From: Dudresnaya verticillata
Taxonomy: Eukaryota
NCBI GenBank assembly: GCA_977862235.1
Contig: OZ374557.1
Location: 2,232,001-2,296,000, forward strand
Length of the DNA: 64,000 nucleotides
Direction: 5' to 3'
The position numbers and the translations under genes were made by a program. Under the pieces are notes generated by a model. That model was given only the letters and a program-made list of their open reading frames with translations. It ran no database searches and was not told the origin of the DNA. Shown here piece by piece: positions 21 through 31,222 of the stretch; position 1 is the first letter of the stretch, and each line of letters starts with the position of its first letter.

Positions 21-3000
21 CTACCCAATCTTCTTCATGTTGCGCAAGTCCCACGAGAACAACAAGCCGTTTAGGCCCTTGAGATTGGCAGGAGGGTCCT
101 CTACTCCCTTGAATATATACGGATACGAACTTAGCTCATACTCCGCCATGACCTTCAAACTGTACACGACCACAAGATGCTCCCCTGGTTTGGCAGATTC
201 TGACAGATCGTGGCCGTGCAAGCGTTCATTCCAGTTCCCTCCTGGAGTCTTTTCCGGATGCAACACGGCCTCCCCCACTTCCTTATCATCTGCAAGAAGC
301 GTGACTCTGTCTCCGGCCTTGGGCATTGCACAAGGTTCAGGTTTTTCCTTCTCCTGCACTTTTCATTCAGCTCCACACTTCCTACAACTATGTCTTCACT
401 CCTGCCGTGCTTCTCGATACTCTCTTCGGGGTCATCCAATGCGTGCTCGGACGGTGTCGTCAGATGGGACATTTCAGGTCCCTTCCTCGTTACGGAATGG
501 TTTGTTGGTTGAGCAGAATCTATTATGACAACACTACCTCTTGCTGCCTCACCGATACCATTCAGTTCGTGATGAGCACTTGATTCCAAACGTTTACGAC
601 CTGTCTTCATTTCATATGCTTCCGTGGCAAGCCTACGTAAACGTTCAGCCCCCAGCTTGAATGTTTCGATCTGTGATTCGATTAGTGTACACCGACGATC
701 TGTTCTGAGAGCTGCAATCCCAGTCGTCATGGTTCCGCTGTGCATATCCAGAACTGATACGCCCTCCGGACAGAATGTTGTCATTATCTCCACAAGTACT
801 TCGGGAGACTTCTCTTCGACCAGAACTGGGGACTTGGTGCCTGGGCGTAGCAACTTGTGTTTCGGTGTTGGTAGAGAGGACATGCACGCGAATTTCCGCT
901 TTTCTGGGGAGGGGATGCAGTGATACTCGCTCCTAAGGTCGAGCGAGAACCCTCCGCCATGCTGACCTGGGGCACGCGCCATGACGGCTATTTCCACACA
1001 GTTCTGGGGCATACCGCTCCCCCGATGTTCCTGCATGGTCTTGGGGTCTTTGGAGAATACGAATGGGTATGCCGGGCACATGAATTGTGCCTTCTTCAGA
1101 GCATCGTGGAATACACTGAAGTTCAGGAATGACGTGAAAACAAACAACCACCCCCTGCTACAAGTACGCGCCTCGAGATCTCAACTATCTTCTTAATGTC
1201 TTCCTCGCTGAGGTAATTATCGAATGACCTCCCCGACTTAGACTGCGATTTCGGTGTACCGTATGGTGGATCTGTGAGGATTAAATCGAATCGTTTGTCA
1301 CCTTCCTTCCTTACGGTACTGTTGTAGCTCTGCCATGTCATCTGAAAGCATGTCAGTTTCATTTCCGCAAGATAATCTATTGGAACAGAAAGCGATCCGT
1401 CCTCCACCGGCACAGCCTTAGTACCCATGTTGAGGCGAACGGACTGCTTTGATAACACAGTTGATATAGTGGGGTCTGTGGGACTCTTTTCCGGCACAGA
1501 ATGGTCTTTGGCTGCACATGCAGCTGTAGGGTCTGCGTTCTGCATGGGTGCCTGTCCAGATTCTGCTGGTTCGCGACCCTCTTCCCTTTTCGAATTGGTT
1601 GATGTTACTAAGTCTGAACCCTCTTCGTCGTTAGAGATTCCGGTAGCGTCCACCTGCGGTGACAACGTGCAGTCCAAATTCTGTTGACCGTCAGAATCTT
1701 TTGCTCCACATTCATTGGAACCCGGGCGGGTCATGATAGCGTCATCACGTCTGCCTTCTGTCGAATCCATCACAGTTTGCATATCTTTGTACTTCTGCAA
1801 CTTCACTGGGGCCTCTTCCGGACAACACTCTCTGTACATCTCAACTATTGTTTTCAACAGTGTACGGTCATTACCTCGATTCATGATGACCTCGACGTCC
1901 AGCTTCGTAGTGTATAACAGGTTTTCTCTTAATTTACTCATGCCTAACGGCCATTCTGTCCCCTCCCTCATTGCTTCAAATTTCCGACTCTCGGAAAGGG
2001 CGGCTGAAGCTTTCACGAATTGCTCTTGTGTGTGTTTGGCCGAAACAGGTTTGAAATTGTGTGTCCTTGACACCTCTCGAAGCCTGTACAGGGTAGCTAT
2101 TTGAACAGTAATGCCGTTTTCAGAGCTGCCTGCATTCATAAAGGCCTTGGAAGACTTGATGGAACTGACGTGAATGAAGCGTCTGTATACTCTGCAATCC
2201 AGATTCTGCATCGCAACATTTGAGTCTATGGCCTTTCCGGAAGCAGTCAACAGTTGCATAGTTGCTAGTTCAGGGACCTCCTCCTTCATTATCTTCCCAA
2301 TTACATCGATAACGCGACGGTCAAGACGAAGAATGGTTGCCGCTGTCTGTTTGATAGTGTTTTCCGATAGATGACTGCATCCATCATATGCTTCGGCAAC
2401 TGCCGTCGCAGTCGGAATCTTCCCATTACTGGCTTCGAGACGGTCTGCCTCTTTCCTCAGACCGCATATCTGATCGTAAGACGTGGTCTCTACAAAAAAG
2501 CTGGAGTCGTGCTTTCTGTTCTGATGACGAGCCAGTTGCTTCAGAATCTGGATGTTGTGCCCCCCTTTAAGCACAGTGGCAGTCAAAGCAAACCCCTTCT
2601 ATGTCTCCCGGTCTTCATCGATTAGCTCCATAATGGCGATAAGTCGATGCATGCCATCAACAACTCCGAGCCACTCCGACCGACTGGAGGCCTCTTCTTT
2701 CACCTGTTTCTCTGTGTACTCTGTCCCATCCGCATTCCGTTTAGCTCGTAGAAACTCAAAAATGAAACTCCTGAAGGGACCTGTTAGGCGAGCCAGTATG
2801 GGTGCATCAGAACCGGCAATGTACCTGTTGTTGTAGTTAGCGCTCCTCGTCCCACCACTCCTGAAAATCTTCTTGAGCCTCTCAACACCGGATCTCGAGA
2901 TGTCCCTTATATCAGTTATTGGAACACAGGACCTGGGGTCTATTCGAATGTTGGTAGACCCCTCCATGACATCTCCAAACAGTGCCTGTGCCATCTCCTC

Positions 3001-3051
3001 CTTCCTTAAGGGCTCACTTGACCCCCTGCTCCGCTTCTTGCGCTTCGACAT
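21..3051 (-). pseudogene. ParB/Srx-like domain + beta-class N6-adenine/N4-cytosine DNA methyltransferase + C-terminal Tnp1-like domain (~1000 codons, disrupted)
   Basis: ORF 2599-3051 has WLGVVDGMHRLIAI (ParB/Srx DGxHR). An in-frame TAG at 2599-2601 joins it to ORF 1123-2586, which ends in FDLILTDPPYG (motif IV). A frameshift in a G-run near 1150 leads to ORF 155-1147 with EK..EV...I...CPEGVSVLDMHSGTMTTGIAA (motif X/I, SAM binding) and CTLIE. Catalytic-before-SAM order indicates beta class. A frameshift near 350 leads to ORF 21-359. Confidence 0.85.
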
Positions 3052-5245
3052 GGTGTGCGAGAGAAAGACTCACTGTGCAAGTGAAAACCGCTCTCCTTGA
3101 AAGAGTACGGAAAGGGGTACTGCATGTCCGACGAGTTGTCCAGATTCTGTTCAGAAAACCTTCCGCAAGAAATTCTTTACGTCCCCGGCTCATGTTTGCA
3201 GGGTGCCGTTTTCGACTGACACAAAACGGGCTTTTGACACACTGGACGGCGGGAGTACAACATGGATGTGCCGCAAATTCTGAGATGGCACGGGAGGTCA
3301 CGTGGATTGTTCACCGGGTGTGGGCAGTCTCCATCAGAACTATTCTTAGCACAGGCCGTACAGTTGGAATTGGTAGAATGCAGGTTTCAGCGGACCTGCA
3401 GGGCGAGATGTAAAAACGTCAATTAGGGCATGCTGCTCGCTGTCCCAGCCGACTTGGCCGGGCTTTGAAGTTGAGGCCGGCCTGGCCATGTGCTGATACT
3501 GCGAGTAAAATAGCATGCCACACACGGTTTCGGGGAGTACTGGCACACTGTTGCCAGCGGCGTGCCAGCGGGGGGCGCGGCGGTCAATTTACGAGGAACA
3601 GGTTCTTGGGGGTGGGAGGTGTCAACACCTGTGGGTGCAATATCAGTATCAGGGAACAGGTGGGGCGAGAGCGCCGGGCCAAATAGCTGTTCATTTGATG
3701 TGGCAAAATGCGCGCTGAAAAACCTGTATAGAATTTCTGTCCAATGATATTGAATAAGCTTGTAAAAGGGTCTTTCCATTGGGCCGCCGTCAACACCTTT
3801 ACAGCTTCTGAATGCGGCCAAGTCACATTGCTATGAGAACAGATATTGCGCTTCACGGCAACGCAGGAGCCCAAAGTGCAATATCAGTATCGGGGAACAG
3901 GTCCTGAGAGCCCGCAAACTCCACAATCTATCTGGCCTCGGCGCTGCGAGCTCACGAGATGAATGCCCAGAATGCGGACACAAATACGCCTACCACAACA
4001 CACTGCCTCACAAACGCCCTTACCCTCGCCGCGACGACTCCCGCTCCGCGAATCCATCACTCACGGTATCCTCCTCCACTCCCCTTCCTCTCCGCTGCGT
4101 AATACCTCCGTTGTGCTTGCCTGCCTGCTTACCGTCCTGCTTCCAGAAAGCCCACCACGTGCAGTACTGCTCTTACCCTGCCCATATGACCTCACGTCCA
4201 ACCCCACCCCCAGCCGTGCAACCGCAGCAGTCATGGAAATCGTTTAACGATAACTTACCTTTACTGACCTCTTGTTGCGCGCGCGCAACCGCCACAGTCA
4301 TGGAAAGTTTTAAGAACCTGGCCCTGCAGCCATGCCGCTAAAGGATGAGGTCTTTCCAGGAGGATCAGCCCCCTTCGGGTCTTTCGGCGATGGATTCTTC
4401 GCTCGTGACTTCTTTGCCACTATGACAAGATGAATCGCAGGCACAGACATGGCAACACGATACGGTGTACGAGAACGGAAGCGATGCCATGTTAACGGTG
4501 ACGGGGTTGCGAAGGCCTCCATGGCTGTTCGACGTGTGGATCGTCTCTGAATGCACACTTGCCACTCGCCCTCGCAAAAAGCTAACCGTCGCAATCCAAA
4601 GTACTGTGGAAGCCTCTATAGGTCGCACCTGGGCCTAGCAGAGGCAGGGAGAGGGTCGCGCGAATTGAGATGAGGGCTTCCTACAACCCCCGATGAGGAC
4701 CCCCTCGCTATCCATTGTACGTCGTTTCATCCCCTGCAAACACGTCTACACAGGACAGAAAATCCTCACAAACGCTCTCTCCGTGGGCTTACGCCCTTTT
4801 CGGTTTTGTGCGCTTCTCACTCTTGTTGTTGACCACGATTGACAGCGCCGTGATCAAAGCTTTCGCGCCACCGGGTTCCAATTATATGGCTGTAGTTTCG
4901 CTTGTTGAGCTATGGTTGCTTGCTGTTTCAACACAGTAGAATAGTTGCTTATTCTAAGTGGATAAGGCGTCGGCACATTTGTCTTTGATATTGTATCTTT
5001 GTTGTTCGATGAGGGCCGCAAAAGCCAGTCCCTTGCTGACATGCATTAGTAAGACAAAGACGTACGAAGAAAGAGGTATTAATGCACGAGGTGGTGGGAC
5101 CGTTTTGAGTGCGGCGACTCCGAATACCCTGCCGCAGAAGCGAGTGTGCACGCCAGAGACCCCATCACGCGGAGAGCTCTATAGCCACACACCTTTCGAG
5201 TCAAGCAGATACAAGCACTGGCTCACCGACACACTGGTACATGCA

Positions 5246-6255
5246 ATGGAAGCAGCACCAACCCCTATCGGCCCTGGAGTGGCGCCGACCGGCGCCTCGT
5301 CGCGCATCCACTGCGATGTCACACCAGCAACCAACAAGCTCGAGTCGCATGTAGCAGTGCCCTGCCTAGAGCGCGCAGTCTCGCTTGGTATGATCGCGGA
5401 TACATCCGAGGCGCGGGAACAACTCCGGTCGTTTCACTTTTCAAGTCTCACGTCCTCGCGTGTTCCCCTCTGCAGACCGCGCGCGCCTGGAAATTGCTCT
5501 ACACTTCTCGTAATGCTTCTTCACCTTCGACAATTTATACTGCGTCGCACGCGGAGGTCGGCCTGCGCGCGTTGGAGGAGCACATGGTGGCCATTGCTTC
5601 CGTGGATGACACGCGGAAGGAAGACGAGCCTGTCGCGCTGGCACTAGGATTGATCATGGAGCGGGTACGGAAGATCGCGCATGCAAGCTCGGTGACGCGC
5701 TTTGCTGGACACGTGAAAAAGTATGTGGAGCGCGTGCGGTGGGAGCGCGCCATGCGAAGTAGCGGGGAGACTCCCGAGCTGGCGACGTTTTGCAAGATGC
5801 GTGCACACTCTGTCGGGGTTATGCCTTCGGTGGACCTGGTAGGGATGCTGATGTGCAACGGGGATTCAGCGGCCGTTGAGGGGTGTGCGTATGTGGGGTA
5901 GCTGTTGGTAATGGGTGTGCAACCATGTTGCGTGGAAAAATGATGTCGTCAGCGTCTGGAAGGACATCCGGGATGGGACAGCGGATAATGTTGTCCTTGT
6001 AATAGCGAGGAAGAGGGGCGTCGGTTGGGCGGAAGTGGTGAAAGATGCGATTGATATATGCAACAAGAGTATATAGCGTACGTTTACGCAAACCCAAACG
6101 TTTGGGAGACTGGAACGGATTGTTGAGAGGTTAAGGGGAGGGCTGACAGAGATACGAATACTTATGTGCAAGGGCTTAAGCACTGGATCCGTGGGCACCT
6201 GGACTGGTGTTCGGAGACGGCGTGTTACCGGAAGGAGTTGGAATTGGCGGCGTAG
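5246..6255 (+). pseudogene. Microbial-type (class I) terpene synthase pseudogene
   Basis: Motifs in correct order across frameshifts: VFPSADRARLEIALHFS*CFFTFDNLY (degenerate Asp-rich helix, ~5460-5540), KMRAHSVGV (R-sensor, ~5795-5820), AWKNDVVSVWKD (NSE/DTE motif, ~5930-5965), NVVLVI, and YVQGLKHWIRGHLDWCSETACY (WxxxxxRY-like, ~6163-6228). No introns apparent. Confidence 0.85.
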
Positions 6256-6924
6256 AGGTTCGGTGTTGGGTTTGCATCATCGGGTAAGGACACGACACTT
6301 TGTGCATGCAGTTCAGACACTTGTATCGCGATTGCAGAAACGTTAAACAAGAAAACGTGAGTTGGAGCTTTTGTTGCTTCTCAACATGGTCACCAAAAAG
6401 TCGTCTATGCGCAGACAGCACTGCCCATTCGCAGCCTGCAGTCTCTAAGCGCGGTGGTTATCGAGGAGGCGCTGAGCTTCATCACGAAGGGCGCAAGATT
6501 GGAAACAGACACCGCAGAACCGCGTGCATCCGCCTGTTCTAGAAGAGCGGCTAGGACCTGCACCCTACAGCCCTAGGGTGATCGTCAGTTGTATGTGTCC
6601 GCCTCTCACCAGCTGGAGAGTTGTACCTGAAATGTAATTGGCCAAGTGCCGAACCAGAATCTGATCACAAACAGAATCTGGATGGCAGAACAACCCAGAT
6701 GCACCCCGTGCAGCCACTCGTGCCGCTCTACGGGTGTGCAGCCTCAAGAGCAGGCAACAGGCGGCGCGGCGCGGTATCACAGAGGGTATTTAATGCGCAA
6801 GCGTTTTGCTGCGAAGGGCTGCGCCTCCCCGCCATGTCGGACATGTGCCTTAAGAGACTACAAAGCGGGCGCTCTGCTTAGAGCGTGAAGGGAAGACAGA
6901 ACGAGTGGCACTCTCACAAGCTGT

Positions 6925-9914
6925 GTGCAGATGCCGTCGCGCAAGGGCATTTTGAACGACATGGAAATGAGCCCGTCAACTACGGATTGCGCTGAGCGAG
7001 AAAATGAAGCAAAGAAAGGAGGAGGCAACGCGCGCGACGAAGGGCGTGTTGCTCTTCTGTATGACAGGGAAATGGTCGGCACTGCTATTGTCAAGAGACC
7101 GGGGACAAAAGAGGACGCAGACCAGTCTGGCAGGTATTGTGTCACCCTGCATGGCCACAAATTGTCTCCCAGTCAGAAAAAAGGGGAGAAGCTGGTTGTG
7201 GTTTACCGAGCACAAATCATGCAACCGTATGAGAAACTTCAGTACAAATACAAGTACAAGACAACGGACTCAGTTCCGCACACACTTGGGGAGATGGGTG
7301 GGGGTTTTCATGCATGGGATGTGAACTACATTCAGGAGCTCGGCAATCGAGAAATCGCGCCGTTGTGCCAGAGACGGTTGTACTCTCCACGACAAGGCAT
7401 AGTTCGTCGCAGAATTTACCCAATACTGAGCAATTGCCCCCCGACGTCAACTGCAGAACACAATGCCGCAGCGGTGGCCCCTACCGCATCGCCCCAGCAG
7501 ATGACACCAGTTGACACGACAAGGCCAGCATCACCCCTCCAACAAAATGCGGGGCCGCAAGCGGATGCCGCAGCGCGGTCAATTCGAACAATACCCCCGC
7601 CTGGCAATGTTCCGAGCAGTGAGGAATTGAGTGAACCGCGAGAGCATTTGAGGGAGGCCGGCCATGATGATGCGGACGCCGTACGGCATGTGTCGGAAAG
7701 TCATGACGATGCGTATGACCCTTTTCAGAAGGTGCAGGTCAGGACGAAGCGAAAGTATACTTACAGGAAGAGAACATAGCAGACATTCAGTGGGAGAGGA
7801 AGTCTTCAGAAGAGACGTAGGCATCTGTTCCAAGTCCTGGAACGCGCAAACACGCAGTCAATGAGATGCTGCATCGGAAACAAGTGATTCCAAAGTGTGG
7901 AGCAAGTGTACTTAAAGGCGGAGGCGCGCAGAATTGCCGGAATGAACGTAGAAGCAAGGCGAACGTATCTTCGCAATCTGTTGGACACGAGCAAGATGAA
8001 ATACTTTTCAACCGTCAGCCTGTCCGTTACAACTTTTTGGAGCAGGCCTTTGGATTCTCCCGTGACTTACAGACCTCTGTAAAAGGCACGAGGCAGTCCC
8101 GGAAGCTGCAACTCCCAAACAATGCGAGGCGTGATACCTCATCCCATCAGCAGGATACTATTATTTGCTTCCTTGAACGTCTTGCGGACAGCACTGCTGA
8201 ACCAATGCCCGATAATGGGGAGTCACACCTCCCCTACTTTCAGAAATCAGTTGTGTACGACATCTTCAAATTGGACCACACCAGGCTGTACAGAAACAGG
8301 GATATTCCGTGTCAGAGTTACTTTTACTTTGTATGGAAACACAGTTGCTCCCGCATTAAGGTGCGAAAGACACACCGATTTGCAAAGTGCAGCGAATGCG
8401 AACTCATTCGCGAGCGACTTGCTCAAGCAGGGACCTCTGGAGCAGGCACTGAACACCTGCATGAGCGGCGCAACATTCGCTTGAAATTCATACAGGCAGA
8501 GAGACGTGAATATCAGAAAAAATGTGAGCAGGCGATACTATTGCCGCAGGAGTATTGCTCCCTCATAGTGGATGGTGCTTATCAGTCCGCATTTGGACTT
8601 CCCCATTTTGTGGTGTCGTCCAAAGCCAGCATTGGGCATGCCATGAAAGCGAAATTTATTGGGGTGCTTGAACACAGGGCTGAGAAGCGTCTGCACTTGT
8701 ACAAAATGACCGGTGAGTTCGAGACCAGCGCGAACCACATTATCGAGGCGTTGCACAGAACGCTTTCGGACAAACAGTCCAGAGGAGAGCTACAAGGGAC
8801 TTTATTTCTACAAGTAGACAACTGTTCGAGAGAGAACAAAAGTACCTTTTTGTTCTCATACCTGGAGAGTCTCGTTGCATGGGGTGTGTTCCAAGAGGTC
8901 TTCGTGTCTTTCCTGCACGTCGGGCACACTCACACAGATATAGATCAGGCCTTTTCGTGCACGGCACGCCGGCTTAAAGTTCGGGACGCAGTCACAATGA
9001 CTGAATTGATGGAAGAGCTTCGGCAGTCGTACAGTCCAGAACCAGTTGTCAGTCGCATGCTTCAAATTGGGATTTTTTCAGGCCTGTGTCGACAGGAAGG
9101 ATGCATTGGTAATGTTGAGGCATTCACGACCTATCGCTATTTCAGATTCCACCGTGTGGGTCCAGCTGCTGCGACGGAAGAGGCAGAATCTGTTGCAGCT
9201 TTCGTGACAGGCTGTCAATTGAGAATGACATGCGCGGATGACTTGTTTCCGTTGCAGACTGGAGGAGAGCATAAGGGGTTCATACTATCCCCTCCTGACC
9301 TTGGCAAGACTCCAGCAACAGTGGTCAAATCGCCGCCAGATTTGAAGGAAGTCAACGACAGGTTTCGTTCTGAAGAGACACGTGTGAATGACACGGGAAA
9401 GATGAGGGAGCTGCAGGAATTGCGGGACCACGTGTACAGAGATAGGCTGGAAACGTTTCATTGGGATATGGGACGCATATTTTAGACAAGGGGAAAGTAC
9501 AGCGGAAGAGCGGCGCTGGAGTACGTACCGGAAGGGGATGACGGTGAGGAGGAGACTGTGACCCCCTCTTCAGACCTGCAGTACACGAAGAACTACTTCG
9601 TTGCCGTTGTGAGGGAGAACGCCACCGCACGATGCCCATTTTGGATTGGACAGATTCTAGATGTTGTGCAGGACGCTACGGGAAAGGCTACTGAGCAGTA
9701 TATAAGATGGTACGAGGCGTATGAAGGTAAGGGTGCTTGGGACGGAAAGTACAAGGCATCCATATACTCAGCGACTAAGCAGCCATGGACTGGTACTGTC
9801 GGCGTCGCGACCGTAATGGTCGAATTCGAAGCTCTTACGAAGAGACGTCTACCGCAGCTCGTCCAGAAGAGAATCAGAGAATCGCCGTTGTTAGTTTGGT
9901 ATGCCGGCTCTTGA
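6925..9914 (+). pseudogene. DDD-type (Sola-like/DUF7869-like) DNA transposase with N-terminal Tnp1-like domain, Cys-rich motifs and C-terminal BAH-like domain; disrupted
   Basis: ORFs 6925-7779 and 7897-8082 are in one frame, separated by stops. A frameshift at a T-run near 8005 leads to 7866-9485, and an in-frame stop leads to 9558-9914. Motifs: RCC..K, FAKCSEC, LIVDGAYQ, LFLQVDNCSRENK, FLHVGHTHTDIDQAFS. C-terminal PFWIGQI...IRWYE resembles BAH/SH3-fold modules. Superfamily assignment is from remembered motifs only. Confidence 0.75.
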
Positions 9915-10104
9915 TACGAGAAACAGCTACAACCAGTAAAGTATACTCTCAGGTTGATGCAGCACACGAGAAATGCAAGGCCATTCGACGCCTGTAGCGC
10001 CCGTCTACGCCACAAGCTAAGTCTGAACCGCGGGTGTGCAAGCGGCTTAGCTACCTGGTAGTGTACCAGGTCGGGCGGGTAGTGGGCCCAGTTGTGAGCA
10101 CGGG

Positions 10105-10570
10105 TCAGAATGCGGGTGGCCGTGCCGCACGGGAGCGGGGTAGGGGTGAGGGAGGCGTGTCGGGGGACTGCTGGGCGGGGCTGACCATGCGTCAGAATGC
10201 GGCAACTTGATGTGGACGTGTCAGAATGCGGCCAGGCGCGGTGCGCAGGAGCGTGGGGAAGGGCGGCGGCGAGGTGTCGGCGAACGGCAGGGAGCCTGAG
10301 ACAGAGTGCGGTCAAAGGCCGGACTGGGGCGGGGAACGGCACTACGGGTCTGGGAGGGGGTGGGGAAGCGCGCCTCATTACGCGCAAGGCAGAAGCAGAG
10401 CGCGTGCACACGCGCCAGAATGCGGAATGCGTGGGCCAGTAGCAGCACCAGGAAGGGTGATGGTGGGAGTGGCTGTCGGATGTGGGGAGGTGGCCGAGCG
10501 CGCGTCGGAATGCGGTGGGAAGCCAAGACCGAGCGCGTCGGAATGCGGCGGGAAGTCGCCAGAATGCGGT
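10105..10570 (+). repeat. Subterminal short direct repeats, core (CA/CG)GAATGCGG, about 8 copies
   Basis: Copies near 10106, 10192, 10221, 10302 (variant), 10415, 10505, 10538 and 10559. The 10495-10560 stretch includes a longer duplication CCGAGCGCGTCGGAATGCGG. Confidence 0.85.
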
Positions 10571-10807
10571 GTTCGGTCGGGGGGCGGGGGCGCGGGCGCG
10601 GGCGGCGGGACGGGCCAGAATCAATTTCTGGAGAATTTTTAATTGGAACTTTTCGGAAAAATCACAACTTTTGGGAACTTTCGACCCCGGGGGCCCCATA
10701 TTCTCAGGGTATCGCCCCCTTTCCAACGCGCTATCGAACGCCGGGATTCAAGGACCCTCAAAAAATTCTGTTCTGTTTTGGAAATTCTGTAGCCGGCGAA
10801 ATTAGTG

Positions 10808-13800
10808 TTACGTGCGTACGAGGTTCCCACGTAGGCGTCGCGTAGCCGTCCCACTTGATACGAAACACGAATTTTCCAGCGTCGTCGGTCGAGTGATCGA
10901 GGATGCGATCGACAACGTATTCGGGGCCTTCGGTGACCTTTTCCGCAATGTCTTCGGGTCGCGTAATCGACGGTCGCGAATTCGTAGGGGTTGGCGCGTA
11001 GATGCAGCGGTCCGCGGAGACGCGTTCAACGAGGCCCTTGCGATCGATTACGAGTGTACGCGTATCGCTGAAGAGCACTTTGTACGGCCCCTCCGCGGGG
11101 GATTTCAACTTCGGAAGTTTCGTTTTCCCATCGTGGGTATCGAGGTACACGTAGTCTCCGGGTTTGACGCGGCTCTTCGTGTGGCGGATGCGCTTATCGA
11201 AGTCGCGTTTGTAACGATTTTGAACTCGCTGTAACGAAGTGCGTGCGGAATCGATGGCGAAATCGAGTCGCTTAACGAAATCGTTGCGAAGGTCCTCCGT
11301 GGGTTTTGGTCGATGCTTCCGGGAGCGATGTTTCACGGTGAACTCGGGCGGTGGTCGCGATAAAACGAGATTGAACGGAGTTGTCTTCGTAGAACGATGA
11401 ACGTGGCAATTGTACGAATATGTTAACGCGGAAACGTAGCGGTCCCAATCGTTTTGGGTGTCGTTCACGTAGTTACGAAGCATCGCGAGGATAGTGCGGT
11501 TATAGCGTTCGGTTTGTCCATTCGTTTGCGGGTGATACGCGGAAGTGAATACGTTCGATAACCCGAGTAGGCGACAGACGCCCTGAAAGAACTTCGAAGT
11601 AAACTGTTTCCCGTTATCCGAGAGCACCGAGGCTGGCGGTCCATACTTGAAGATCCAAACTTCGCAAAAGGCAACGGCCACGTGATACGCGGTTATTACT
11701 CGTAGTGTGGCCACCCGGGTCAACTTCGTAAAGCGATCCGTAATCACGAGAATGAACTTGCGTCCGGATTTCGTTCGTGGCAACGGGCCTAAGATGTCAA
11801 TCGCGACCGATTCGAGTGGGCGCGTAGCGGGGAAGAGCTTCAAGCGATGAAGATTCCTTCGGAGACGGATTCGATTCCTTGCGCAATATTTGCAGTTACG
11901 AACCGTGGATGCGATATCGGCGGCCATGTAAGGCCAGTAATACGTTTCACGAAGCGAGTAGAACATATGATTTTGCCCCGGGGGGCCTGCGAGTAACGAA
12001 TGATGCGCCAGCGTGAGCAAGCGAGGTCGGAGCGTCTCGGGCAATTCGATTTGCGTTAGCTTCGGAATCGTTGGGTGCGTTCGTCGCAGGAGACCGTCTC
12101 CATCTTCGTGAAAGAGACTATCCTTCGTTTTCGATTGTCGTGATTGCACCGTTTGGCAGAACGAATCAATACGTTGTCCTTCGAGGATTTCGGTTACCGT
12201 AATCGGTGCAGGTAGGTCTACGGGTTTCACGTCGGTGAGGTCACTCGGTTATTCGCTGGGATCAATTCGATAAAGGTCAAACGGATCATCGTCATCGATA
12301 TCGTCCCATAAGTCGCAGTCATCGTAGACATCCTTTTGCCCTGCGTATTCATCACGTAGCTCTGCGTCGTGTTCGTGTTCGCAGCCTTCGTGGTACGTAT
12401 CATTGTGGGGTTCGGAACCCGTGGTGACCTCCGTGGGTCGTGGTGTAGTGCCGGCTCGATATACGCGTGTCGCGGGTGTAGTCTTTCGCGTAGAGTCGTG
12501 GCGAATCGCGGTGGGCTTCGATTGACGTTTGCGGGATCGCGTAGTAATGAGAACCGGGTCTCTTTCGTTTTCGATGGTTTTCGTAATGTCGTTGCGGAAA
12601 CGTTCTTCGTTCTTCGCTGCGATTTGATCCGAGTCAAACGTAGGAACGTCGTTGTCGATTGCGGGTTGTTCACGATACGGAAGTAGCAATCGCGAGAGGG
12701 CATCGGGAATCTGGTGGACGCGACCGGGGCGATACACGATTTCGAAGTCGAATTCGGCTAAGCGAAGCCTCCATCGCGTGAGTCGGCCGGACGAATCGGT
12801 GAGAGAAAGAAGCCATCGGAGCGCATCGTGGTCCGTACGCACGGTGAACCGGGTCCCTTCGATATACGGACGCAACGATGTAACTGCCCATACGACTGCG
12901 TAGCATTCGCGCTCGGTTGCGGAGTAGTTCTTCTCGGCATCGTTTAACGAATACGACCAGTAGCCCACGGGTTGAAATTCTTCGTTATCTTGCTCCTGTA
13001 GCAACGCGCATCCGAGTTGATACGCAGACGCGTCCGTATCGATAATGTAACGTTTCCCGAGTTGCGGTAACCGGAGTATCGGCGGTGACACGAGCTTCCG
13101 TTTGAGCGTTTCAAATGCGGTAACCTGATCCTCCGTGGGATTCTCGTAGTCGGGATCCGCGTCCTTTCGCGTCATGTTCGTCAACGGTCGCACAATTTTT
13201 GCGAAGTCTTTCACGAATCTTCGGTATATGTTACACGCGCCGAGGAACGAACGGACTTGCGTGAGTGTCTTCGGGAACTTTGCGTATCGGAATGCCTCGG
13301 AGCTCTTCTCGGCCATACTCAGCTTCCCCGGGGAAATCACTTGTCCGAGATAGTCGACTCGCTTTCGGAAAAGGAAGCACTTCTTCATCTTGAGCGAAAC
13401 CCCGGAGCTGCGAAGTAACGTGAGAACTTGATCGAGATGCGCGATGTGTTCACGAAGATTTGCGGAGGAAACGATCACGTCATCGAGGTAAACGAGACAG
13501 CACTGCCAACGGACTCCGGATAGAATGATGTCGAGTGCGCGTTGAAACGTAGCGGACGCGTTTTTCAATCCGAAGGGCATACGAAGATAACGATAAGTTC
13601 CGAGAAACGAAATAAACGTAGTCTTATCGCGGTCTTCCGGGGCAACCGGAATCTGCCAGTATCCGCTGTTACAATCGAGTTTCGAGAAAATAGAAGCGTC
13701 TCCGAGTGAATCGATACAATCTTCCATCCGGGGAAGTGGGTACGCGTCGGATAGCGACTTCGTATTGAGTCTTCGGTAATCCACGCAAAAACGAAGTGTT

Positions 13801-15347
13801 CCGTCTTTCTTCGGTGCGAGGACTACGGGGGACGCCCACTCCGAGGTGGCTGGTTCGATTACTCCGGCTTCGAGCATACTGTCGATTTCGTTACGGACGA
13901 TTTCACGTATTGCGGGCCCTTGACGATATTGGCATCGAACGAATAGGTCGAGTCCCGGGTTGTAGATCGATCCGATGCTCCGTGGCTGCGATCGTTCCTA
14001 GGTCTCCGTTCCACATCGATTCGTGCTTACGTAGCATCTCGAGGACGTCGTTTCGCATAGTTTCATCGGGTATGTTCGAAAGGTCTACGCGTTCTTCCCA
14101 ATCGCGGGAACTCGAATTGGCTTCTGCTGCTGCTGTCGCGGCGCCCTTCGTGAGCGGTTTTTCCTTCGTGGATACGGATTCTTCGGGTGACTTCGAGTCG
14201 TCGTGCTCACGTAGTGTAGAGATGTTGAGCACCTTGGCAAACGAATCCGCGACTCGCGATCGGGTGTCGGAATCGCGCGCGGGTTTCGAGCTGCGTATCC
14301 GATGACGGTTCCCTTCGGTAGAGTTCGAGGCTTACCCGTGAAGTTCGCCATCAACACCGAAAACTCGCGATTCGGACTGACTTCGTGTATCCCGTTCGTT
14401 AACCGTACTCCGTGTCGGTGTTGTAACGAAGGCTTCGGTTCGATATGAATTAGTCCGAGTGCTTCCGAGGTCACGGTGACTAGCTTCTGCGAATAACTCG
14501 GTATGGTGACACGGCGGTTCAAACGAATGGTACGAGTGTCTCGGTCCCAATCGTGGAGCTCGCGTTGATGTCGTTTCGATAGCGTTTTCTCGAATTTCTG
14601 CTTCGGATTTTTCGAATTAGTAGCGGGCGGAGCCGATCCAGCAATGTGGTTGATAATCGGAATCGTGCTTCCACTCTTCGTGATGAGCCTCCGTGGGCTG
14701 AGCTCGATGCTTCGTAAATGCGCGTCCATCCACAAAGTTCCAAAGAGAACGTCGACTGCGAGTTTCTCCGCAACCACGAAGGGTACGCGGTATCGAACGT
14801 TCCCAAGGCGGACTGTCAGGTAAACGATACCATCGAGTCGCAACGGGGTGCGATCAGCGGATGCGAGCCTCGGAGCTGATTCCATCGTGGACGCGTTCGA
14901 TTCCCAACCGGTGGGTAACGCAGCCCGGGCTATAAGGTTGTAACCGGAACACGTATCGACTGCAATCGTATGCAGTGTCATTACGGAGGCATCGAGGCCA
15001 ATGGATCCGGTCACGAGGAAGATCTCCGAAGTCATCAAGCAAACGTATCCCTCGGTGGTAACTTCGGGTTCGATCTTCGAGATCGGTATCTTCTTCGAAT
15101 TGTTTTCGCACGAAGCGTCTTTCGCGAGGACTCGACATCGCTTTCGGTCTCGTCGTCGTGCAGCGCGCTTCCTTCGCATCACAGCGGCTCTCGGAATCTG
15201 AATACGCGGAGTGTCTCGGGGAACGTTAACCGGTTCTCGCAGTCCGTGAAAACGTTGACGCGATTGAGCCGAGTCACCCGAACCTGCCCTCGGAGGCTTA
15301 CGAAGACTCCGCGAACGACGGAAGAGGTGATCGATCAACCTCCCCAT
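10808..15347 (-). pseudogene. pol: Element A pol: protease, RT, RNase H, integrase, chromodomain
   Basis: AVDTCSG (protease); LRFCVDYRRLN, MPFGLKNA, YLDD (RT); DTDAS...TDH (RNase H); C..C, AIDILGP, SDNG, GQTER (integrase); GPY; EYVVDRILDH...IKWDGY..PTWEP (chromodomain). Frameshifts near 14235 and 13925, in-frame stop at 12249. Confidence 0.95.
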
Positions 15348-15374
15348 TGGACGCGGACGCTCGCAATTCGGATT

Positions 15375-17708
15375 CTAGTTCGAGTTCGGAAAACGAGTAA
15401 AGGCGAAGACGCCCGTTGTGTCACGCGGTTGACGGCCCGGGGCCTGCGCGTGTCTTGGATTGCGGAGGACGGTCGGCGGTCCTCGACGCTCAAAGCTGAC
15501 TTGACGCTGGGATCGGTCCCTCGGGTAGCGCGTATCGCCTTGACGAAGATCTCGGTTTGCGCGATTGTCACGTGATCCTCGGGAGTCTTGTCCACGGTGA
15601 CCTCGATTGTCAACGGACGCGAACGAATTCCCTCTTGATGCGCCGCGATTCACGAAGTTATTACGCGTATACGGTCTCGTTTCGAGTTGGTACAAGTAGT
15701 TCTGGTACGTGCAATAGAGTTCTTGCTCCTTCGTGAGATACGGACACGAATACATGAGGTGACCGATTTCGCGACAGAACCAACACGGCCACGCATCTTG
15801 ATTCTTCGGTATCATCGAACGCGCCATCTCGATTTGCTCCGGGGTCATCGGTGGTACACGTGCGGGTACGAAACGCTCGATGCGACTCGTGAGATCTAAC
15901 GTATCGTCCACGGAGACCGTTGTCGAATTAGTCGGTGTAGCGGATGTGGACCCGGTTCCTGAACGAATCATCATCACTGCCATTTGCGGATCTTCGTTCA
16001 TCGGGTACTCGTATTCACTCCCGGGAGTGTCGCAAGCTTCGATAAGCATCGTGCGTCCGGGCGCTTGGCGACTCTTTGGGTACGTAGCGGACGCTCGGTT
16101 CTTCGAATCACGCGACTGTTGGGCTGCGGTGTCACGTAGTTCGCGAGCTCGGAATGTCGTGCCTTCGGCTTGCGCGATTCGTTGCACGCTCATAAAATTC
16201 TTCTGCTCGGACAGCGGTAGGCGTCGTACCTGGTCGGCCACGATAGGATACGTAGTATGTAGTAATCCACGAATAAACTGGTGCGTTAACGAAGAGTCAT
16301 CGTAGACACCGGAGCAGGCATCCGCGTAGCCTTGCAAACGAGTCGCGAACTCCATCTCTGTTTCATCGGACTTCTGCTTCGCGGTTATCACGCGATCGTG
16401 TGCGTCTGCGATTACGTCTTCCGTGAGAAATCGTTGTAGTAACACGTTCACGATCGCGGACCAGCAAACCGGGTTGCCCGTACGAACGCCTCCGAAGGCA
16501 TAGTGTTGATACACCTTGAGCGCGGTCTCATCGAGAAACCACGAAATCGTACGAACTGCTGCTCCTTCGGTGAGCCCGACTCCGTTCAACGCTTGTCGAA
16601 TATCACGAAGAAATGCGAGAACCTTAATCGGGTCGCGTCCCGTAAACTTCTCGAGTCTCGGCATCATCCAACGCATGCGCGAAACGGTTTTCGACGTGTT
16701 ACCTCGGAATACTTCGTGTTGGTTATCCCGAGGTGACGAATTCGTGAGTCGATACGATCGATAGCTTACGGCCCGCGCGAATTCGGGAATGAGCGTCGGT
16801 ATCGGTTCGACGCCCGGCTCGAGCGGTCCCCAGTGCCAGAGCGATGACACGGGTCCCGCGAGCGCTAACGTATTTTCGATTACGGGTCCTCCGGGGGACA
16901 TCGGTTATTGAAGCGAATCTCGGAATACTGCGGGGTTGATACGGGGGTTGTCGGAGGCATCGGTTGCCTGATGCGATAAAGGGTGCGGGGACGGATTCGG
17001 ATACGTGTTTTTCGGTAACGTAGATTGGGCACCCGGGCCTTGCACGGGTTGAACTAGCGGCGAATGGAGGGGGTCAGGACGGGCTTCGGAATGATCTTCG
17101 CGACTTCGAGACTTCGGTAACGCTGCGGACGCGATGTCACGAATAGCGTTCAACTGTTCCTCGGAGAATGCGTGCGAGCTGCGAACGGGAAGCGAGTGAC
17201 TCGCCTTGCCCACGGGGGCGGATACGTTGCGCTCGAGCACGAGAAACCGATTGCTGACTCCCGAGACGAGATCCCGGAGACTCTCGAGTGAGTCTTCGAT
17301 CCTACGGATCTTGCCAGCCCGGAGATTGTTGAACTCTTCGTGAACTCGATTGTGCGTATTACGAATCGAAAGCTGCGTGATACGGTACGCGGTAGAAAGC
17401 GCATCGATGACCTCTTCGTAGAGTAAACGTAGTTCTGAACCGGAGACGTGCTTCATCGAGAAGAGTCGATCGACGGTATCCGAAGGAACGATTTCCAACG
17501 GAGTGTACGTATACGAAAGGTCGGACTGGCTACCGTGAGCCTGCGAACACGAGTCTGTGCGAAGATCGGGTACCGTTATTCGTGAAGCGCGAGTGCGAGA
17601 AAACGGTTCTCGGTCACTCGCGTTCGAGTCGAACAACGGGAGCTCCGGAATCGGTACGTCATCAGGTTTCGGTACCGGCGAATCGGGACGACTCGGAGCG
17701 TGAGACAT
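15375..17708 (-). pseudogene. gag: Element A gag (in-frame stop at 16905-16907)
   Basis: SYRSYRL, FTGRDPIKVLAFL, QKSDETEMEFATRL (MHR-like), zinc knuckle CWFCREIGHLMYSC. Confidence 0.9.
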
Positions 17709-17760
17709 CGTGTCTCGGATAGAAACGAATTACGAATAAATGCGAAACTTCGGGACCACG

Positions 17761-17778
17761 TTCTAGGTCGGGAGACCA
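17761..17778 (-). promoter_or_regulatory. Primer-binding site of A, TGGTCTCCCGACCTAGAA
   Basis: Lies 1 nt inside the LTR end and is identical to the PBS of B, C and D. Confidence 0.9.
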
Positions 17779-17779
17779 G

Positions 17780-18701
17780 TGTGGTATAACGAAGTCCACG
17801 GAGACGCGGGGAAGTCTCGCACTGTAAGGAATGGCCTCGGAGCCTAACGAATGGCCTCGTAGCCTAACGGAGAAACGAAAAGGGGTGGTAGCGTTGTAGA
17901 GCGGAGCGACCAACACGAAGGACCACGGTGTCAACGTATTCGTGTGCGGAAGGGAGAACTTGAGCGATCGATCACCGGGGATGACTCCGGGTGCGTGGGG
18001 CTATCGAAAGCGAGGCTCGACCGTATCCGCGGTCACGAAGACGAAGACACCGAACTCGAAGAAACAGGCGTTTACCGAAGACTCCGAGGTCCGGGCGCTA
18101 GTCGCTTGCCGGAAACCCTCGGAGGTTGTGCCAGACGACTGGCTAAGTAGTACTACGTGAGCACGAATGCGCGTCAACTCGGGAGACGGTTCGTACTCGA
18201 ATGATTCGTAACGGCCTCGGTGCCAGCGAACGGTCGCCTCACGTATGGTGGCGGTTGCGAAGTGCGCCAGCGATGCGCGTGTGTCGTGGGCCCCGGTGCC
18301 GTTACGCGAGGGAAACAACGGGAAAGTCACGAAGATGTCAGCGATTTCGTATCGGGTGCGCACTGTAATGCGAATGCCATCGTGGCGCGCGCGATCACGA
18401 AGTCGGATCGGGATTCGTCCGGAGGTGTCAGCGATTTCGTATCGGGTGCGCACTGTAATGCGAATGCCATCGTGGCGCGCGCGATCACGAAGTCCGATTG
18501 GGATTCGTCCGGAGGTGTCAGCGATTTCGTATCACGTGCGTGCTGTAATGCGAATGCCATCGTGGCGCGCGCACCGTATGCATCGCTGTAATACGTTTGC
18601 CATCCTGGCGTGCACATTCACGGAGTCATTTCGAAATTCATATTTCTCGATTATTTTCACGTAGGCCACGGAGTCGTTTCACGGATAGTGTCTATACCAC
18701 A
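17780..18701 (-). repeat. 5' LTR of element A (922 bp)
   Basis: Perfect 9-bp terminal inverted repeat TGTGGTATA...TATACCACA, with adjacent PBS. Confidence 0.92.
18336..18572. repeat. 90-bp tandem repeat (~2.6 copies) inside LTR A
   Basis: TGTCAGCGATTTCGTATC... starts at 18336, 18426 and 18516. Confidence 0.95.
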
Positions 18702-19429
18702 ATCAGAAAGATACGTTTGGCCAACTGACGACAGTGCGGCCGAGCGGACGCCGGTGAACATGCGTAAGAGGCACACGTGTCCAACAAGTGTACACGTGTG
18801 TCACACGTGGCCACCACGTGTGTCACACGTGGCCACCTACGACACCCAAGCGCACCACGTGGCTCGCTGTACACGTATGATCGGTGTGATCGGATCTGGA
18901 AGCAAGTGCGGAAAGGAAATTGGATTTGGCCGCAGGTGAATCAAGCAGAAGACAGCGGAAAAATTAAGGGAAAATCTAACTCATTTGGCCAACCACTAAC
19001 GAACAAGTACTTGGTTTAGTCTGGTAAGGGTACAACATTGGCCCGACGCCGGAACACAAGTAGATATTATGGCCGACGGGGAGTAACCTCGGCCACTAAC
19101 TGTGGAATAGCTCTAGATTAGCTCTAGTGGCCGTCTTTGGGCCTACTTAGACGGCCACAAACCACGGCTCGGCCAGAATAGGTACGAAGTCGTCCCGCCA
19201 GAGGTTGGGAGTAAAGTTTTGCAACCTTTTCCCCAACTCGGCCATTTTCCACTGCTCATCCAGGATCTTGGCCGCGACTTCGTCTGTGCGCTCCCGCTCT
19301 ACCACGCTTGCTACCGGCGCGCAGGTCCGTTCTACGTTCGGCCGTTTGCTACGAAATCCGACCGATCTTCCTGGTCCTTTGGGGTCTCATCCTGGCGTCG
19401 CATTCGGTGGTGCGTTTAGAGATACTACA
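18702..19429 (+). repeat. 5' LTR of B (first ~65 bp displaced by insertion of A)
   Basis: Near-identical to 42945-43650; ends GATACTACA followed by C + PBS. Confidence 0.95.
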
Positions 19430-19430
19430 C

Positions 19431-19448
19431 TGGTCTCCCGACCTAGAA
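19431..19448 (+). promoter_or_regulatory. Primer-binding site of B
   Basis: TGGTCTCCCGACCTAGAA immediately after the LTR. Confidence 0.9.
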
Positions 19449-28546: not shown

Positions 28547-31222
28547 CTATTTTGCCGCACCCTCCTCCAAGTCGGGAATATCTTCACCATACACCCTTGC
28601 GGTGATCATGGTGAGCCTCCTGCCGGTGTCTTCCATGCGTCGACGCAAAGCACGAATGGTACACCGTAGGCACACCAGACGCCCGACCCACAGCACGGCG
28701 GTGTTAATGGCCTCGTTCGCCGACGCTGGAAGGGGCATGCTGGAATCTCTACACCCTTCGCGGAGTCGCTGCAGGGCAGCCCCATCTACGCGCAACTCCG
28801 CTTCGGTCCAACTCGTCATCTCCTTCGGGGCATCCTCTTCTTGTTTCACCACCACGGGGTCGATATTACGGGGTGGTCCTCCAGCTGGACCCGCAGCGGC
28901 CACAAACGTCACGGAGTCACTCGACGCGGGCGACACCGGTTTGGCAGTTTCACCCCGCTTCGGTACAGGGGTCTTCACTGCTACTCTAGACCGTGTGATC
29001 GCGAGTGCCTCCACTTGGTCGATCCCCGCCGGTGTAGCGCCCTCTTCCATTTCGGAGTCTTCGTGTTCCCCGACGGGGCCCAACTTCGCCACGGCTGCAG
29101 CTACTACCGTGGGCTTCTGACCAACTCCCGCTACGGTATTCGCCGCCTTGTCCAACTTGGTGTTCTTGTTAACCCCCGGCGAGGCCACCGGTTTCGAAAC
29201 CCCGATTGGTGTAGATGCTGCGGCCACCCCCGACAAACCCCCCTGCGTCTCGATCTCCGCTCCTACAGGAGGAGACTCTGTTACGGTATTCTTGGGCGAC
29301 GAAGTCGTGCGGTCGCCCCACACCTTTATGGCTTCTCCACCAGGGGATTCTCTTGGCACGAGGACCCTGGGGTCCCCGCGCACCCTCTCAATCTCGTCAA
29401 CCCCCACTGGTGTAATCTCGTCAGCAGGCGGACTGTCGAGGCGTCCCTGTTGATGCTGCACACCGAATGGAGTACCCCACTCGCGTGACGGCGGAGCCCT
29501 TGATGGCCCCTCCGTCATGGGGTAGAAGCGCGAGCGGGAGCGCATCGCGTGCCAGCTCAACATTTGCTCGTCGATCAACCACACCGGTTCGGGGTCTTCG
29601 TCCGACAGGAAATAAGCCATACCGCATCCGGAGTTAAGTGGCGGCACCGATAACACGCGGTCTTCGTCCCAATGGTAACCGACGAATCCTGGGGTTCGCT
29701 CCCAGTTGGTGTTCGCGCGAACCGCGAAGAGACGCTCAACACGCGCCAAGGGGTATTCGGTCCCCTCAACCAACCGGGCCACTCCAACTTGGTGTATGAG
29801 GGCAACCACTGTGCTTGGTAGCTTGAAGATGCGCCCGCACTCGCCACCTTCTGGATCCGTTCTGTTACGCGGGTATGCCCTCCAGTCGGTCATCTTGGTA
29901 TTGGCTCTCACGTCCCGGTAGGTAACTTGTAACCAAGCGAAAAGGACGAACATTGCCCATTCCGCTCGGAGTATTCGCCCCAACACGGTCATCAGTAGAT
30001 GGTCAACCGACTTCTCTCCGGCTGGGTGTGCATCTTGCCAGTCGCGCTGCTGGATAAACCGATTGGAGAGGTACGCTACCACCGTCGGAGTTGGCACCGA
30101 CAGCCAACGTGTGATTTCGTACTCAGCCCACCAATCCGGAGCGGTGCAGTATAATCGACGCTGCGCCCCCGGCGGAACCTGGAAGAATTCGTTCGTGTTC
30201 CAAGTGTGGAGTATCGCCCTTCCGAGGCGGCGTCCATCTCTACCCCGCAATCGGAGCCGATGCTCTTTCGCTGCGTCGTCAGCCCACCGTTGCGGATTCC
30301 CAAGCCAATGAACACCTTGGTCATATGGTTTTTCGTAGCAAAGGAAATCGACACCAACCGGATGATCTCGCAGTCGATGGTCCATTGCCAACAATCGACA
30401 CACCTTATCGGGATAGCCCTCTTCTTCCTGACATCTCAACCACACGATGTCACACCCAAGTGGAGTTCGCACCCTACAGTTTGCGTGAATCCACCTGGCC
30501 CTCCACATCTCTGCACGCCGATTCGGGAACCACTTGTTGTTGATTAACCCACCGGCGTCTGTAACAGCACTGTAGCGACTCCCCTCGAGGTTTTCACCAT
30601 AGTTGGAAACGAACACCGATACGGTAATGGGGAGACGCACCATATCTCGCTCCTCTTCGGTACGCTGACGCCGCCCGGTGCGGTGGTCATACTCCCGGCC
30701 CGGCCAAGTTCCCTCATCGGTGTACCCCGTCTAGTCCACACGCCCGTGGTAACTCCCCAGTGTCCCCGGCGCGTATGGCAGTGAACCCGACGGTCCGCCG
30801 CCGACACCCATGTGGAGTGGGGCTGAGGTTACTCCAGTTCTACCGTGCCCAACCTGGAGACCCTGCGCGTACGCCTCATATCGCCCATGCGGAGTTGTGC
30901 GACGATAACCACCAAGCTCCATCTCGGTGATGCCCTTTGAAGGACCGGGTCGTTGTACCCCCGGCCCCACCTGTCGATCCGGGAGCGGAGTGGGCGTCTG
31001 GCGAGCCTCGCCATCATTGCGTCGGCGCGGAACACGCGGGCTACCCGTGCGTGCTGGCAGCATCGGCATTGTGCTCGCTGCCGCCACAACTCCTGATATG
31101 GTGTCCGCAGATCCGCCGCCTTCTCCCTCTTCTGCCTCCGGCGCAGGAGCCGCCCCCACCGATGGTGTACGCCGTGTCGTTTGAAAGGGGACCCGTGCGC
31201 GGTCAGTGTTGCCGCCCGCCAT
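28547..31222 (-). CDS. Antisense accessory ORF of element C (unknown function; 698-codon open segment plus disrupted 5' part)
   Basis: ORF 28547-30643 has a Trp-rich globular region, a low-complexity linker and a helical C-terminus. Probable ATG at 31222. Conserved in copy C2. Confidence 0.8.

What the first reader, a model, noticed from the sequence alone, without database searches (positions are those of the whole stretch)
21..3051. Bacterial/phage-style ParB + beta-class DPPY methyltransferase in a eukaryotic repeat region
Seen: DGMHR, TDPPYG and LDMHSGTMTT in one reconstructed ~1000-aa frame, with a helical region and a disordered linker between ParB and MTase. Known: ParB/Srx-MTase fusions are typical of phages and prokaryotic mobile elements, and DPPY enzymes are usually N6-adenine (sometimes N4-cytosine) MTases. 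Inference: horizontally acquired enzyme adapted by adding a basic N-terminal NLS (MSKRKKRSR) and a transposon-type C-terminal domain.
Basis: partly seen in the sequence, partly recalled or inferred. Interest (0 to 1): 0.8.

Follow-up and report, generated by a model that had tools for sequence, protein, structure and literature searches.

The report
Dead transposon-borne ParB-methyltransferase gene
This is a broken copy of a bacterial-style DNA-binding-plus-DNA-methylase gene that sits head-to-head with a transposase in a eukaryotic repeat region, a design already reported in algal jumping genes, where intact copies likely bind and chemically mark their own element.

Summary
All three motifs are on the minus strand at 3051-21, and the pieces align end to end with intact 850-1058 aa relatives that have the same layout: ParB/Srx fold, helical region, disordered linker, beta-class amino-methyltransferase, and a small SH3-like barrel. 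This copy is a pseudogene, with one nonsense codon, two frameshifts and excess change at conserved sites. It is not a host-adapted gene. It faces a decayed DUF7869 (DDD-type, probably Sola-like) transposase 3.9 kb away. Ten relatives share exact contig length and source with transposase relatives (0.5 expected), and the two proteins co-diverge. So it is a transposon accessory gene of the kind reported for Ectocarpus Sola1-1_Ec32 and, in split form, for red algal Plavaka elements. Additions here: the family is large (456 clusters at 50% identity); only 20 of 56 long members keep the catalytic motif; the barrel domain moves between the methylase and the transposase; and eight GAATGCG repeats near the right end are candidate binding sites. 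Activity, target base, element ends and host are not shown. Verdict: a new member of a known but experimentally untested kind.

The parts
21..3051 (-). Pseudogene of a ParB-like + beta-class amino-methyltransferase + SH3-like barrel protein (about 1010 codons; nonsense codon at 2599-2601, frameshifts near 1150 and 342)
2495..2985 (-). ParB/Srx-fold domain with DGMHR (2644-2658); boundaries approximate
   Evidence: Model of relative P0006 matches PadC Z 9.1, rmsd 2.7, 95 aligned; KorB Z 7.5; sulfiredoxin Z 7.2. Foldseek top rows are ParB/Noc at E 0.035 and above
1765..2494 (-). Helical region including an HTH-like unit; boundaries approximate
   Evidence: pLDDT mostly 80-95; pNOB8 ParB aligns over model residues 77-415, Z 8.7, rmsd 4.7, 217 aligned; HTH and sigma-type matches at Z 4-5 for 253-318
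1390..1764 (-). Variable low-complexity linker
   Evidence: unconserved, variable in length in alignment A1
620..1389 (-). Beta-class amino-methyltransferase domain: motif IV TDPPY (1258-1275), then motif I LDMHSGT (722-751 with MTT); split by the frameshift near 1150
   Evidence: H. pylori DpnA-like structure 5hek, E 3e-12; CcrM 6pbd; phrog_67, E 5e-22 and 2e-29 for two relatives
24..329 (-). About 100-aa SH3-like beta-barrel, also found at the N-terminus of the neighbouring transposase
   Evidence: 38% identity to window 7045-7340; pLDDT 94; only weak KOW/Tudor/PWWP-type matches, best Z 4.8, rmsd 2.5, 53 aligned
6931..9914 (+). Decayed DUF7869 (DDD-type, probably Sola-like) transposase, divergent from the MTase gene; stops at 7777, 7885 and 9483, frameshift near 8005, DGADQ changed to DGAYQ
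   Evidence: PF25273 E 1e-43; 54% identity to intact 978-aa P0181; frames
10100..10570 (+). Subterminal array of 8 same-orientation GAATGCG copies (fullest form CGCGTCGGAATGCG); candidate binding sites
   Evidence: 8 observed, shuffle mean 0.12, maximum 2 in 2000
10790..10810 (.). Candidate right end of the element: a Gypsy chromodomain is cut here and the sequence reads ...TAGTG (CACTA on the minus strand)
   Evidence: no partner end in the window
4958..6283 (+). Broken microbial-type terpene synthase gene lying between the two transposon genes (cargo or later insertion; unresolved)
   Evidence: PF19086 E 1e-12; bacterial sesquiterpene synthase models E 1e-7; NDxxSxxKD-type motif in another frame at about 5940

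Best explanation
The locus is a decayed DNA transposon whose ParB-methyltransferase gene faces a DUF7869 transposase gene, and the intact protein likely binds repeated sites in its own element and likely methylates adenines (possibly cytosine N4) there. Shown: the domain content, the lesions, the head-to-head layout, and the subterminal repeat array. Strongly indicated but indirect: physical linkage to this transposase across the family. Inferred from ParB biology: the HTH-like unit reads the repeated motif, and the ParB domain binds a nucleotide and lets the protein load and spread along the element. Inferred from the DPPY motif: the MTase deposits 6mA in cis, which would keep the element transcribed or shielded from host silencing, or would tag its ends for the transposase. 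The shared barrel may be a docking or chromatin-contact module that either partner can carry. This copy makes no functional protein. My odds: about 0.9 that it is a dead transposon accessory gene, about 0.6 that self-binding plus methylation is how the DPPY-bearing branch works.
For: Intact relatives have the same layout. PF01555 is found in 48 of 53 long relatives scanned, out of 150 listed. The ParB fold is supported. Distances of the paired proteins correlate, rho 0.79, permutation p 0.0005. The window's best MTase hit (P0002) and best transposase hit (P0181) are one such pair. Run X1 holds short contigs with about 2-10% differing letters over the MTase gene, the upstream region and the transposase. 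The window's closest relatives all keep DGMHR and DPPY. The same design is described for Ectocarpus Sola1-1_Ec32.
Against: No activity, nucleotide binding or DNA binding was measured. Only 20 of 56 non-redundant long relatives keep [DNS]PP[YF], and whole clades have EPPS-, ALPS- or DPFQ-type motifs in open frames, so methylation is not needed across the family. The repeats could equally be transposase-binding sites. The element's ends were not defined: the left end is outside the window, and the candidate right end reads CACTA, unlike the AACCG ends of Sola1-1_Ec32. The ParB box reads DGMHR, not the GxxRxxA form recalled for CTPase ParBs.
Confidence: 0.6

Rival explanations
1. The protein is mainly a non-catalytic DNA-binding helper of the transposon (anti-silencing factor, end-bridging scaffold or transposase partner), and the MTase fold serves as a binding surface.
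For: 36 of 56 long relatives have lost the catalytic motif yet keep open frames, in several clades. The barrel domain is shared with the transposase in the window and in 6 of 87 transposase relatives.
Against: DPPY is kept in the window's whole sub-clade and in a second deep clade. It goes together with an intact DGxHR (14 of 20 against 8 of 36; not phylogenetically independent).
Confidence: 0.25
2. The enzyme marks its own family for repression or copy-number control, rather than protection, like a silencing amino-methyl mark.
For: Same anatomy as the best explanation. 4mC serves as an epigenetic mark in bdelloid rotifers (PMC8885841, start of abstract; its link to transposon silencing is recalled).
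Against: Long co-divergence with the transposase fits a benefit to the element. 6mA is tied to active transcription in the passages read in PMC4738411.
Confidence: 0.1
3. A host-domesticated, horizontally acquired DNA methyltransferase that happens to lie in repeats.
For: Basic N-terminus; prokaryotic-type domains.
Against: Three frame lesions. 12-15% of otherwise invariant columns are changed, against 3-9% in held-out intact relatives (the window copy is also slightly more distant overall, 0.39-0.40 against 0.41-0.47). The neighbouring transposase is equally decayed. Relatives are linked to transposases.
Confidence: 0.03
4. Bacterial or phage contamination, or misassembly.
For: No whole genome is held and no long read spans the locus.
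Against: No close relative turned up in prokaryotic genomes, viral contigs or phage records (pattern-seeded or tblastn searches). The partner transposase has named relatives in the liverwort Riccia. G+C of about 50% fits the neighbouring transposase. Nonsense substitutions in both genes are not typical read errors (general knowledge).
Confidence: 0.02

Closest known systems
Accessory gene of Sola1-1_Ec32, Ectocarpus (PMC12477816; passages, part of the reference list and supplement rows seen)
   Same: ParB-like domain plus N4/N6 DNA methyltransferase in one protein of about 1000-1100 aa, on the strand opposite a DNA transposase. The authors propose self-binding and self-modification.
   Different: Sequence homology could not be tested (the paper's FASTA files are unreadable here). 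That element is 21.5 kb with AACCG ends, 282-bp TIRs and a 4-bp TSD. Contigs holding both genes here are 8-17 kb, and the ends are undefined. The shared barrel and the catalytically dead clades are not mentioned in the passages read.
PAG2 and PAG3 of red algal Plavaka elements, Bostrychia (10.1101/2025.02.11.637652; section 8 and passages read, supplements not seen)
   Same: PF01555 methylase and a ParB-like domain carried as accessory genes by algal DNA transposons, next to repeat arrays, and mobile between transposon superfamilies.
   Different: There the domains are on two genes (MTase + SET; ParB + 2OG oxygenase) beside an EnSpm-type transposase. Here ParB and MTase are fused, no SET hit was found in 53 relatives, and the transposase is DUF7869.
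Phage and plasmid beta-class DNA methyltransferases (phrog_67, DpnA, CcrM) and phage ParB-like proteins
   Same: Motif IV before motif I, DPPY, 23-29% identity over the MTase domain. Phage ParB-like proteins are the top named structural matches of the N-terminal half.
   Different: Listed matches cover only the MTase part (27% of the query or less). The N-terminal half has no sequence match in 50,697 phage records.
ParB-HTH-fused chlorophyte-type Dam family (PMC4738411; passages and section 8 read)
   Same: A ParB-related unit fused to an adenine MTase in algae and chytrids.
   Different: That family is placed in group 2 (M.EcoKI/M.TaqI-like), whereas this one is PF01555 beta-class.

Membership tests
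Beta-class DNA amino-methyltransferase (PF01555) | Motif IV (D/N/S-P-P-Y/F) precedes SAM-binding motif I; profile match | tested here: met
   TDPPY then LDMHSGT in the window; 9 of 9 intact relatives hit PF01555, best E 2e-15; PDB profile hits are DpnA-like and CcrM
Beta-class DNA amino-methyltransferase (PF01555) | Catalytic activity and target base (6mA or 4mC) | not testable with these tools
   No assay; this copy is frameshifted inside the domain
ParB/Srx superfamily | ParB/Srx nucleotide-binding fold | tested here: met
   The nine best VIA-align rows are ParB/Srx-fold proteins, Z 9.1 to 5.0; Foldseek agrees weakly. No Pfam ParB hit by sequence
ParB CTPases (ParABS type) | GxxR CTP-binding box, CTP-gated clamp, palindromic parS site | tested here: inconclusive
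   Box reads DGMHR, and [DN]GxHR is in 22 of 56 relatives; the candidate site is only an imperfect palindrome; CTP binding untested
Sola1-1_Ec32-type ParB-MTase accessory gene | ParB-like + N4/N6 MTase gene on the strand opposite a DNA transposase | tested here: met
   family-wide linkage indicated
Sola1 superfamily | Sola1 transposase, TIRs, 4-bp target site duplication | tested here: inconclusive
   DUF7869 with DG[AM]DQ in 82 of 87 relatives, plus QxDN and GHTHxD[IV]D. No Sola reference sequence was available. The left end is outside the window and the right end has no partner
Plavaka PAG2 (MTase + SET) | SET domain fused to PF01555 | tested here: not met
   No SET hit in 53 long relatives or in the 9 members of A1
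Plavaka PAG3 (ParB + 2OG oxygenase) | 2OG oxygenase domain after ParB | tested here: not met
   The domain after ParB and the helical region is an MTase in 48 of 53. Homology of the ParB parts was not testable
Phage ParB-MTase fusions | Sequence kinship across both domains | tested here: inconclusive
   Only the MTase part matches; the N-terminal half has no tblastn or PHROG hit but structural matches to phage ParB-like proteins

The most novel reading that the evidence does not exclude
Eukaryotic DNA transposons run a bacterial parS/ParB-like self-recognition system. A nucleotide-gated clamp loads on the GAATGCG array, slides along the element and writes a private 6mA or 4mC mark that separates self from host DNA. 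An SH3-like barrel swapped between methylase and transposase couples the mark to transposition, and several lineages later kept the clamp but dropped catalysis.
Probability: 0.2. Interest if true: 0.85.

Novelty: new member of a known kind. Interest (0 to 1): 0.42.

Why it matters
Transposon-encoded enzymes that modify their own element are rare. The ParB-MTase type was predicted in two 2025 algal genome papers; I found no experimental test in my searches. This copy is dead, but it leads to intact relatives with full catalytic motifs and to a candidate binding motif, which makes the self-marking idea directly testable. If true, it would be a eukaryotic use of a ParB clamp and a local source of 6mA or 4mC independent of host enzymes.

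Tried and rejected
No whole genome is held, so paralogues, copy number and the left end could not be examined. A homologue search with the 341-aa MTase piece against longer proteins found nothing (weak evidence). Viral contigs gave no relative of the MTase or the transposase. Prokaryote genomes gave none for the N-terminal half and two short MAG contigs with a transposase relative and no MTase neighbour (L002, L003; probably misbinned eukaryotic DNA, not shown). The one metagenome locus (L001, 3.6 kb) holds only a frameshifted MTase relative. No RNA holder was listed. Run X1 left the terpene synthase region and 9000-11100 largely without cover, which shows nothing either way. No terminal inverted repeat partner was found in the window. 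The transposase profile had no meaningful PDB match. The Atlas gave unnamed phage and bacterial clusters at 0.93-0.94 and fungal DUF3723 at 0.92 for the N-terminal half, with low shared-feature counts, and nothing above 0.79 for the barrel; these are leads only. The barrel could not be assigned beyond SH3-like. 'DUF7869' occurs in no paper of the library. The original Sola paper was not held, so the Sola assignment stays open. No MTase phylogeny against prokaryotic enzymes was built: at 23-29% identity and with this sampling it would not name a donor. No complex prediction was run. Rejected: RNA or protein MTase (DNA amino-MTase profiles score far better), host domestication, contamination, and membership in PAG2 or PAG3.

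Full report
Observation. The minus strand from the ATG at 3051 to the stop at 21-23 carries MSKRKKRSR, DGMHR (2644-2658), TDPPYG (1258-1275) and LDMHSGTMTT (722-751) in four ORF pieces. The first two pieces are separated by an in-frame TAG at 2599-2601; read with X there, they give 642 residues. A search with that reading found 14 relatives, 9 of them 850-1058 aa with PF01555. Laid back on the window, these align collinearly in frames -2, -1 and -3, which places frameshifts near 1150 and near 340. A contig of run X1 has one extra base at 342.

Domains. All 9 members of alignment A1 hit PF01555. Their profile finds a DpnA-like structure (E 3e-12) and CcrM in the PDB, and two relatives hit phrog_67. 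Motif IV precedes motif I, which is the beta arrangement (established knowledge). No Pfam ParB model hits, but an AlphaFold model of the N-terminal half of relative P0006 (18-sequence alignment, pTM 0.70) matches PadC (Z 9.1, rmsd 2.7, 95 aligned), pNOB8 ParB (Z 8.7, rmsd 4.7, 217 aligned), KorB and sulfiredoxin as the best of 48,161 chains. Foldseek ranks ParB/Noc first in the PDB, at E 0.035, and ParB-like phage proteins high in the viral library. The last 100 residues fold confidently (pLDDT 94) into a barrel with only weak KOW/Tudor/PWWP-type matches, best Z 4.8.

Family. The full HMMER search found 456 clusters at 50% identity with E up to 0.001 and listed 150. Of 53 long ones scanned, 48 hit PF01555 and none hit SET. 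Among 60 non-redundant long proteins, 56 could be scored: 20 keep [DNS]PP[YF], 22 keep [DN]GxHR, and 14 keep both. Loss of the catalytic motif is clade-wide in several branches, while the window's closest relatives all read DGMHR and DPPY. Basic stretches occur in the first 40 residues of 10 of 60 and in the last 260 of 38 of 60, so the N-terminal NLS-like stretch is not a defining adaptation. None of the 40 MTase relatives looked up, nor their cluster members, carries a source name.

Surroundings. On the plus strand, 6931-9914 encodes a DUF7869 protein (E 1e-43) in pieces. It is 54% identical to an intact 978-aa relative, with three stops, a frameshift and DGAYQ where 79 of 87 relatives have DGADQ. 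Its conserved DGADQ, QxDN and GHTHxDxD motifs look like a DDD transposase core; the link to Sola is recalled and indirect. Its N-terminus carries the same barrel as the MTase C-terminus (38% identity, E 8e-19). A profile built from 22 MTase tails finds the barrel in 35 of 74 long MTase relatives (those 22 included) and at the N-terminus of 6 of 87 transposases. In the pair P0002/P0181 only the transposase has it. Downstream, eight GAATGCG copies cluster at 10108-10568 (shuffle mean 0.12). At about 10807 a Gypsy chromodomain is cut off by sequence that reads CACTA on the minus strand, which has no partner in the window. A broken microbial-type terpene synthase lies between the two genes. The rest of the window is nested Gypsy-type elements.

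Linkage elsewhere. DNA around the relatives could not be fetched, so I compared the contig lengths that the searches print. Of 59 MTase entries (four entries repeating a length were left out), 10 equal the length of one of 87 transposase contigs, always from the same source. Jittered lengths give 0.49 on average and never 10 in 100,000 trials. Ten of the 23 MTase contigs of 7.5 kb or more match and 13 do not; the transposase list is incomplete. Pairwise distances of the ten pairs correlate (rho 0.79, p 0.0005), and the trees share their main groups. This is indirect, gives no orientation, and shared host ancestry could add to the correlation.

State of this copy. It changes 12-15% of columns invariant in the other relatives, against 3-9% for each of 8 held-out intact proteins. 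The transposase changes 9-10%, against 0-8% for 11. Both genes have been decaying together.

Literature. PMC12477816 (passages, part of the references, supplement rows; FASTA supplements unreadable) reports a 1104-aa ParB-like plus N4/N6 methyltransferase gene opposite the transposase in the 21.5-kb Sola1-1_Ec32 of Ectocarpus, and suggests that such proteins bind and modify their own element. The Bostrychia preprint (section 8 and passages; supplements not seen) reports PAG2 (methylase + SET) and PAG3 (ParB + 2OG oxygenase) on Plavaka and other red algal elements, with repeat arrays beside PAG3. Its Supplemental Table 6 may list this very family. PMC4738411 (passages, section 8) covers other eukaryotic adenine MTase clades. 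PMC6431247 and PMC13076208 (passages) added nothing decisive, and PMC8885841 gave no match for my terms. Earlier AI notes of this scan describe similar elements in other eukaryotes; they are unchecked leads.

Host. It is a eukaryote. A red alga is my guess, from the intron-free genes, the G+C content, the microbial-type terpene synthase (its occurrence in red algae is recalled) and the algal papers. It was not shown.

Mechanism and verdict. Most likely the intact protein recognises repeated sites in its own transposon through the ParB/HTH half and methylates the element in cis, which would favour its expression or mobility. The anatomy and layout are shown, the linkage is indirect, and binding, spreading, the base modified and the benefit are inferred. 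The main rival is a non-catalytic helper role, supported by the many motif-less relatives. The finding is real and correctly read at domain level, but it is a dead copy of a published, still untested kind of transposon accessory gene. Interest 0.42.

Noticed in passing
window 4958-6283 (+): Broken microbial-type terpene synthase gene between the MTase and transposase genes; possibly captured cargo.
   Followed up: partly
window 9580-9900 (+): The transposase ends in a conserved Trp/Tyr-rich domain (PFWIGQI...IRWYE) that looks like a Tudor/BAH-type reader by eye; no Pfam hit, not folded.
   Followed up: no
window 3635-3661 and 3876-3902; 4215-4239 and 4282-4306: Two short direct repeats (27 nt at 96%; 25 nt at 88%) in the spacer between the divergent genes; possible regulatory sites.
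   Followed up: partly
window 10793-10807: A CACTA-type end next to a non-CACTA transposase; it may be this element's end or belong to another inserted element.
   Followed up: partly
L001:2950-3128; proteins P0043, P0051: Some relatives end in a Cys/His-rich, PHD-like finger instead of the barrel (judged by eye).
   Followed up: no
P0003 residues 25-440: The Atlas lists fungal DUF3723 proteins (0.92, low shared-feature count) as look-alikes of the ParB half; DUF3723 is recalled as cargo of fungal Starship elements.
   Followed up: partly
window 10808-17729: This Gypsy element has a CpG observed/expected ratio of 1.72, against 0.8-1.1 elsewhere in the window.
   Followed up: no
window 17761-19448: 27-nt inverted repeat pair around a 90-nt tandem array (18330-18599); possibly a small non-autonomous DNA element.
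   Followed up: no
window 28547-30730 (-) and 39259-42378 (-): Long antisense ORFs (727 and 1039 aa) inside Gypsy elements; function not examined.
   Followed up: no
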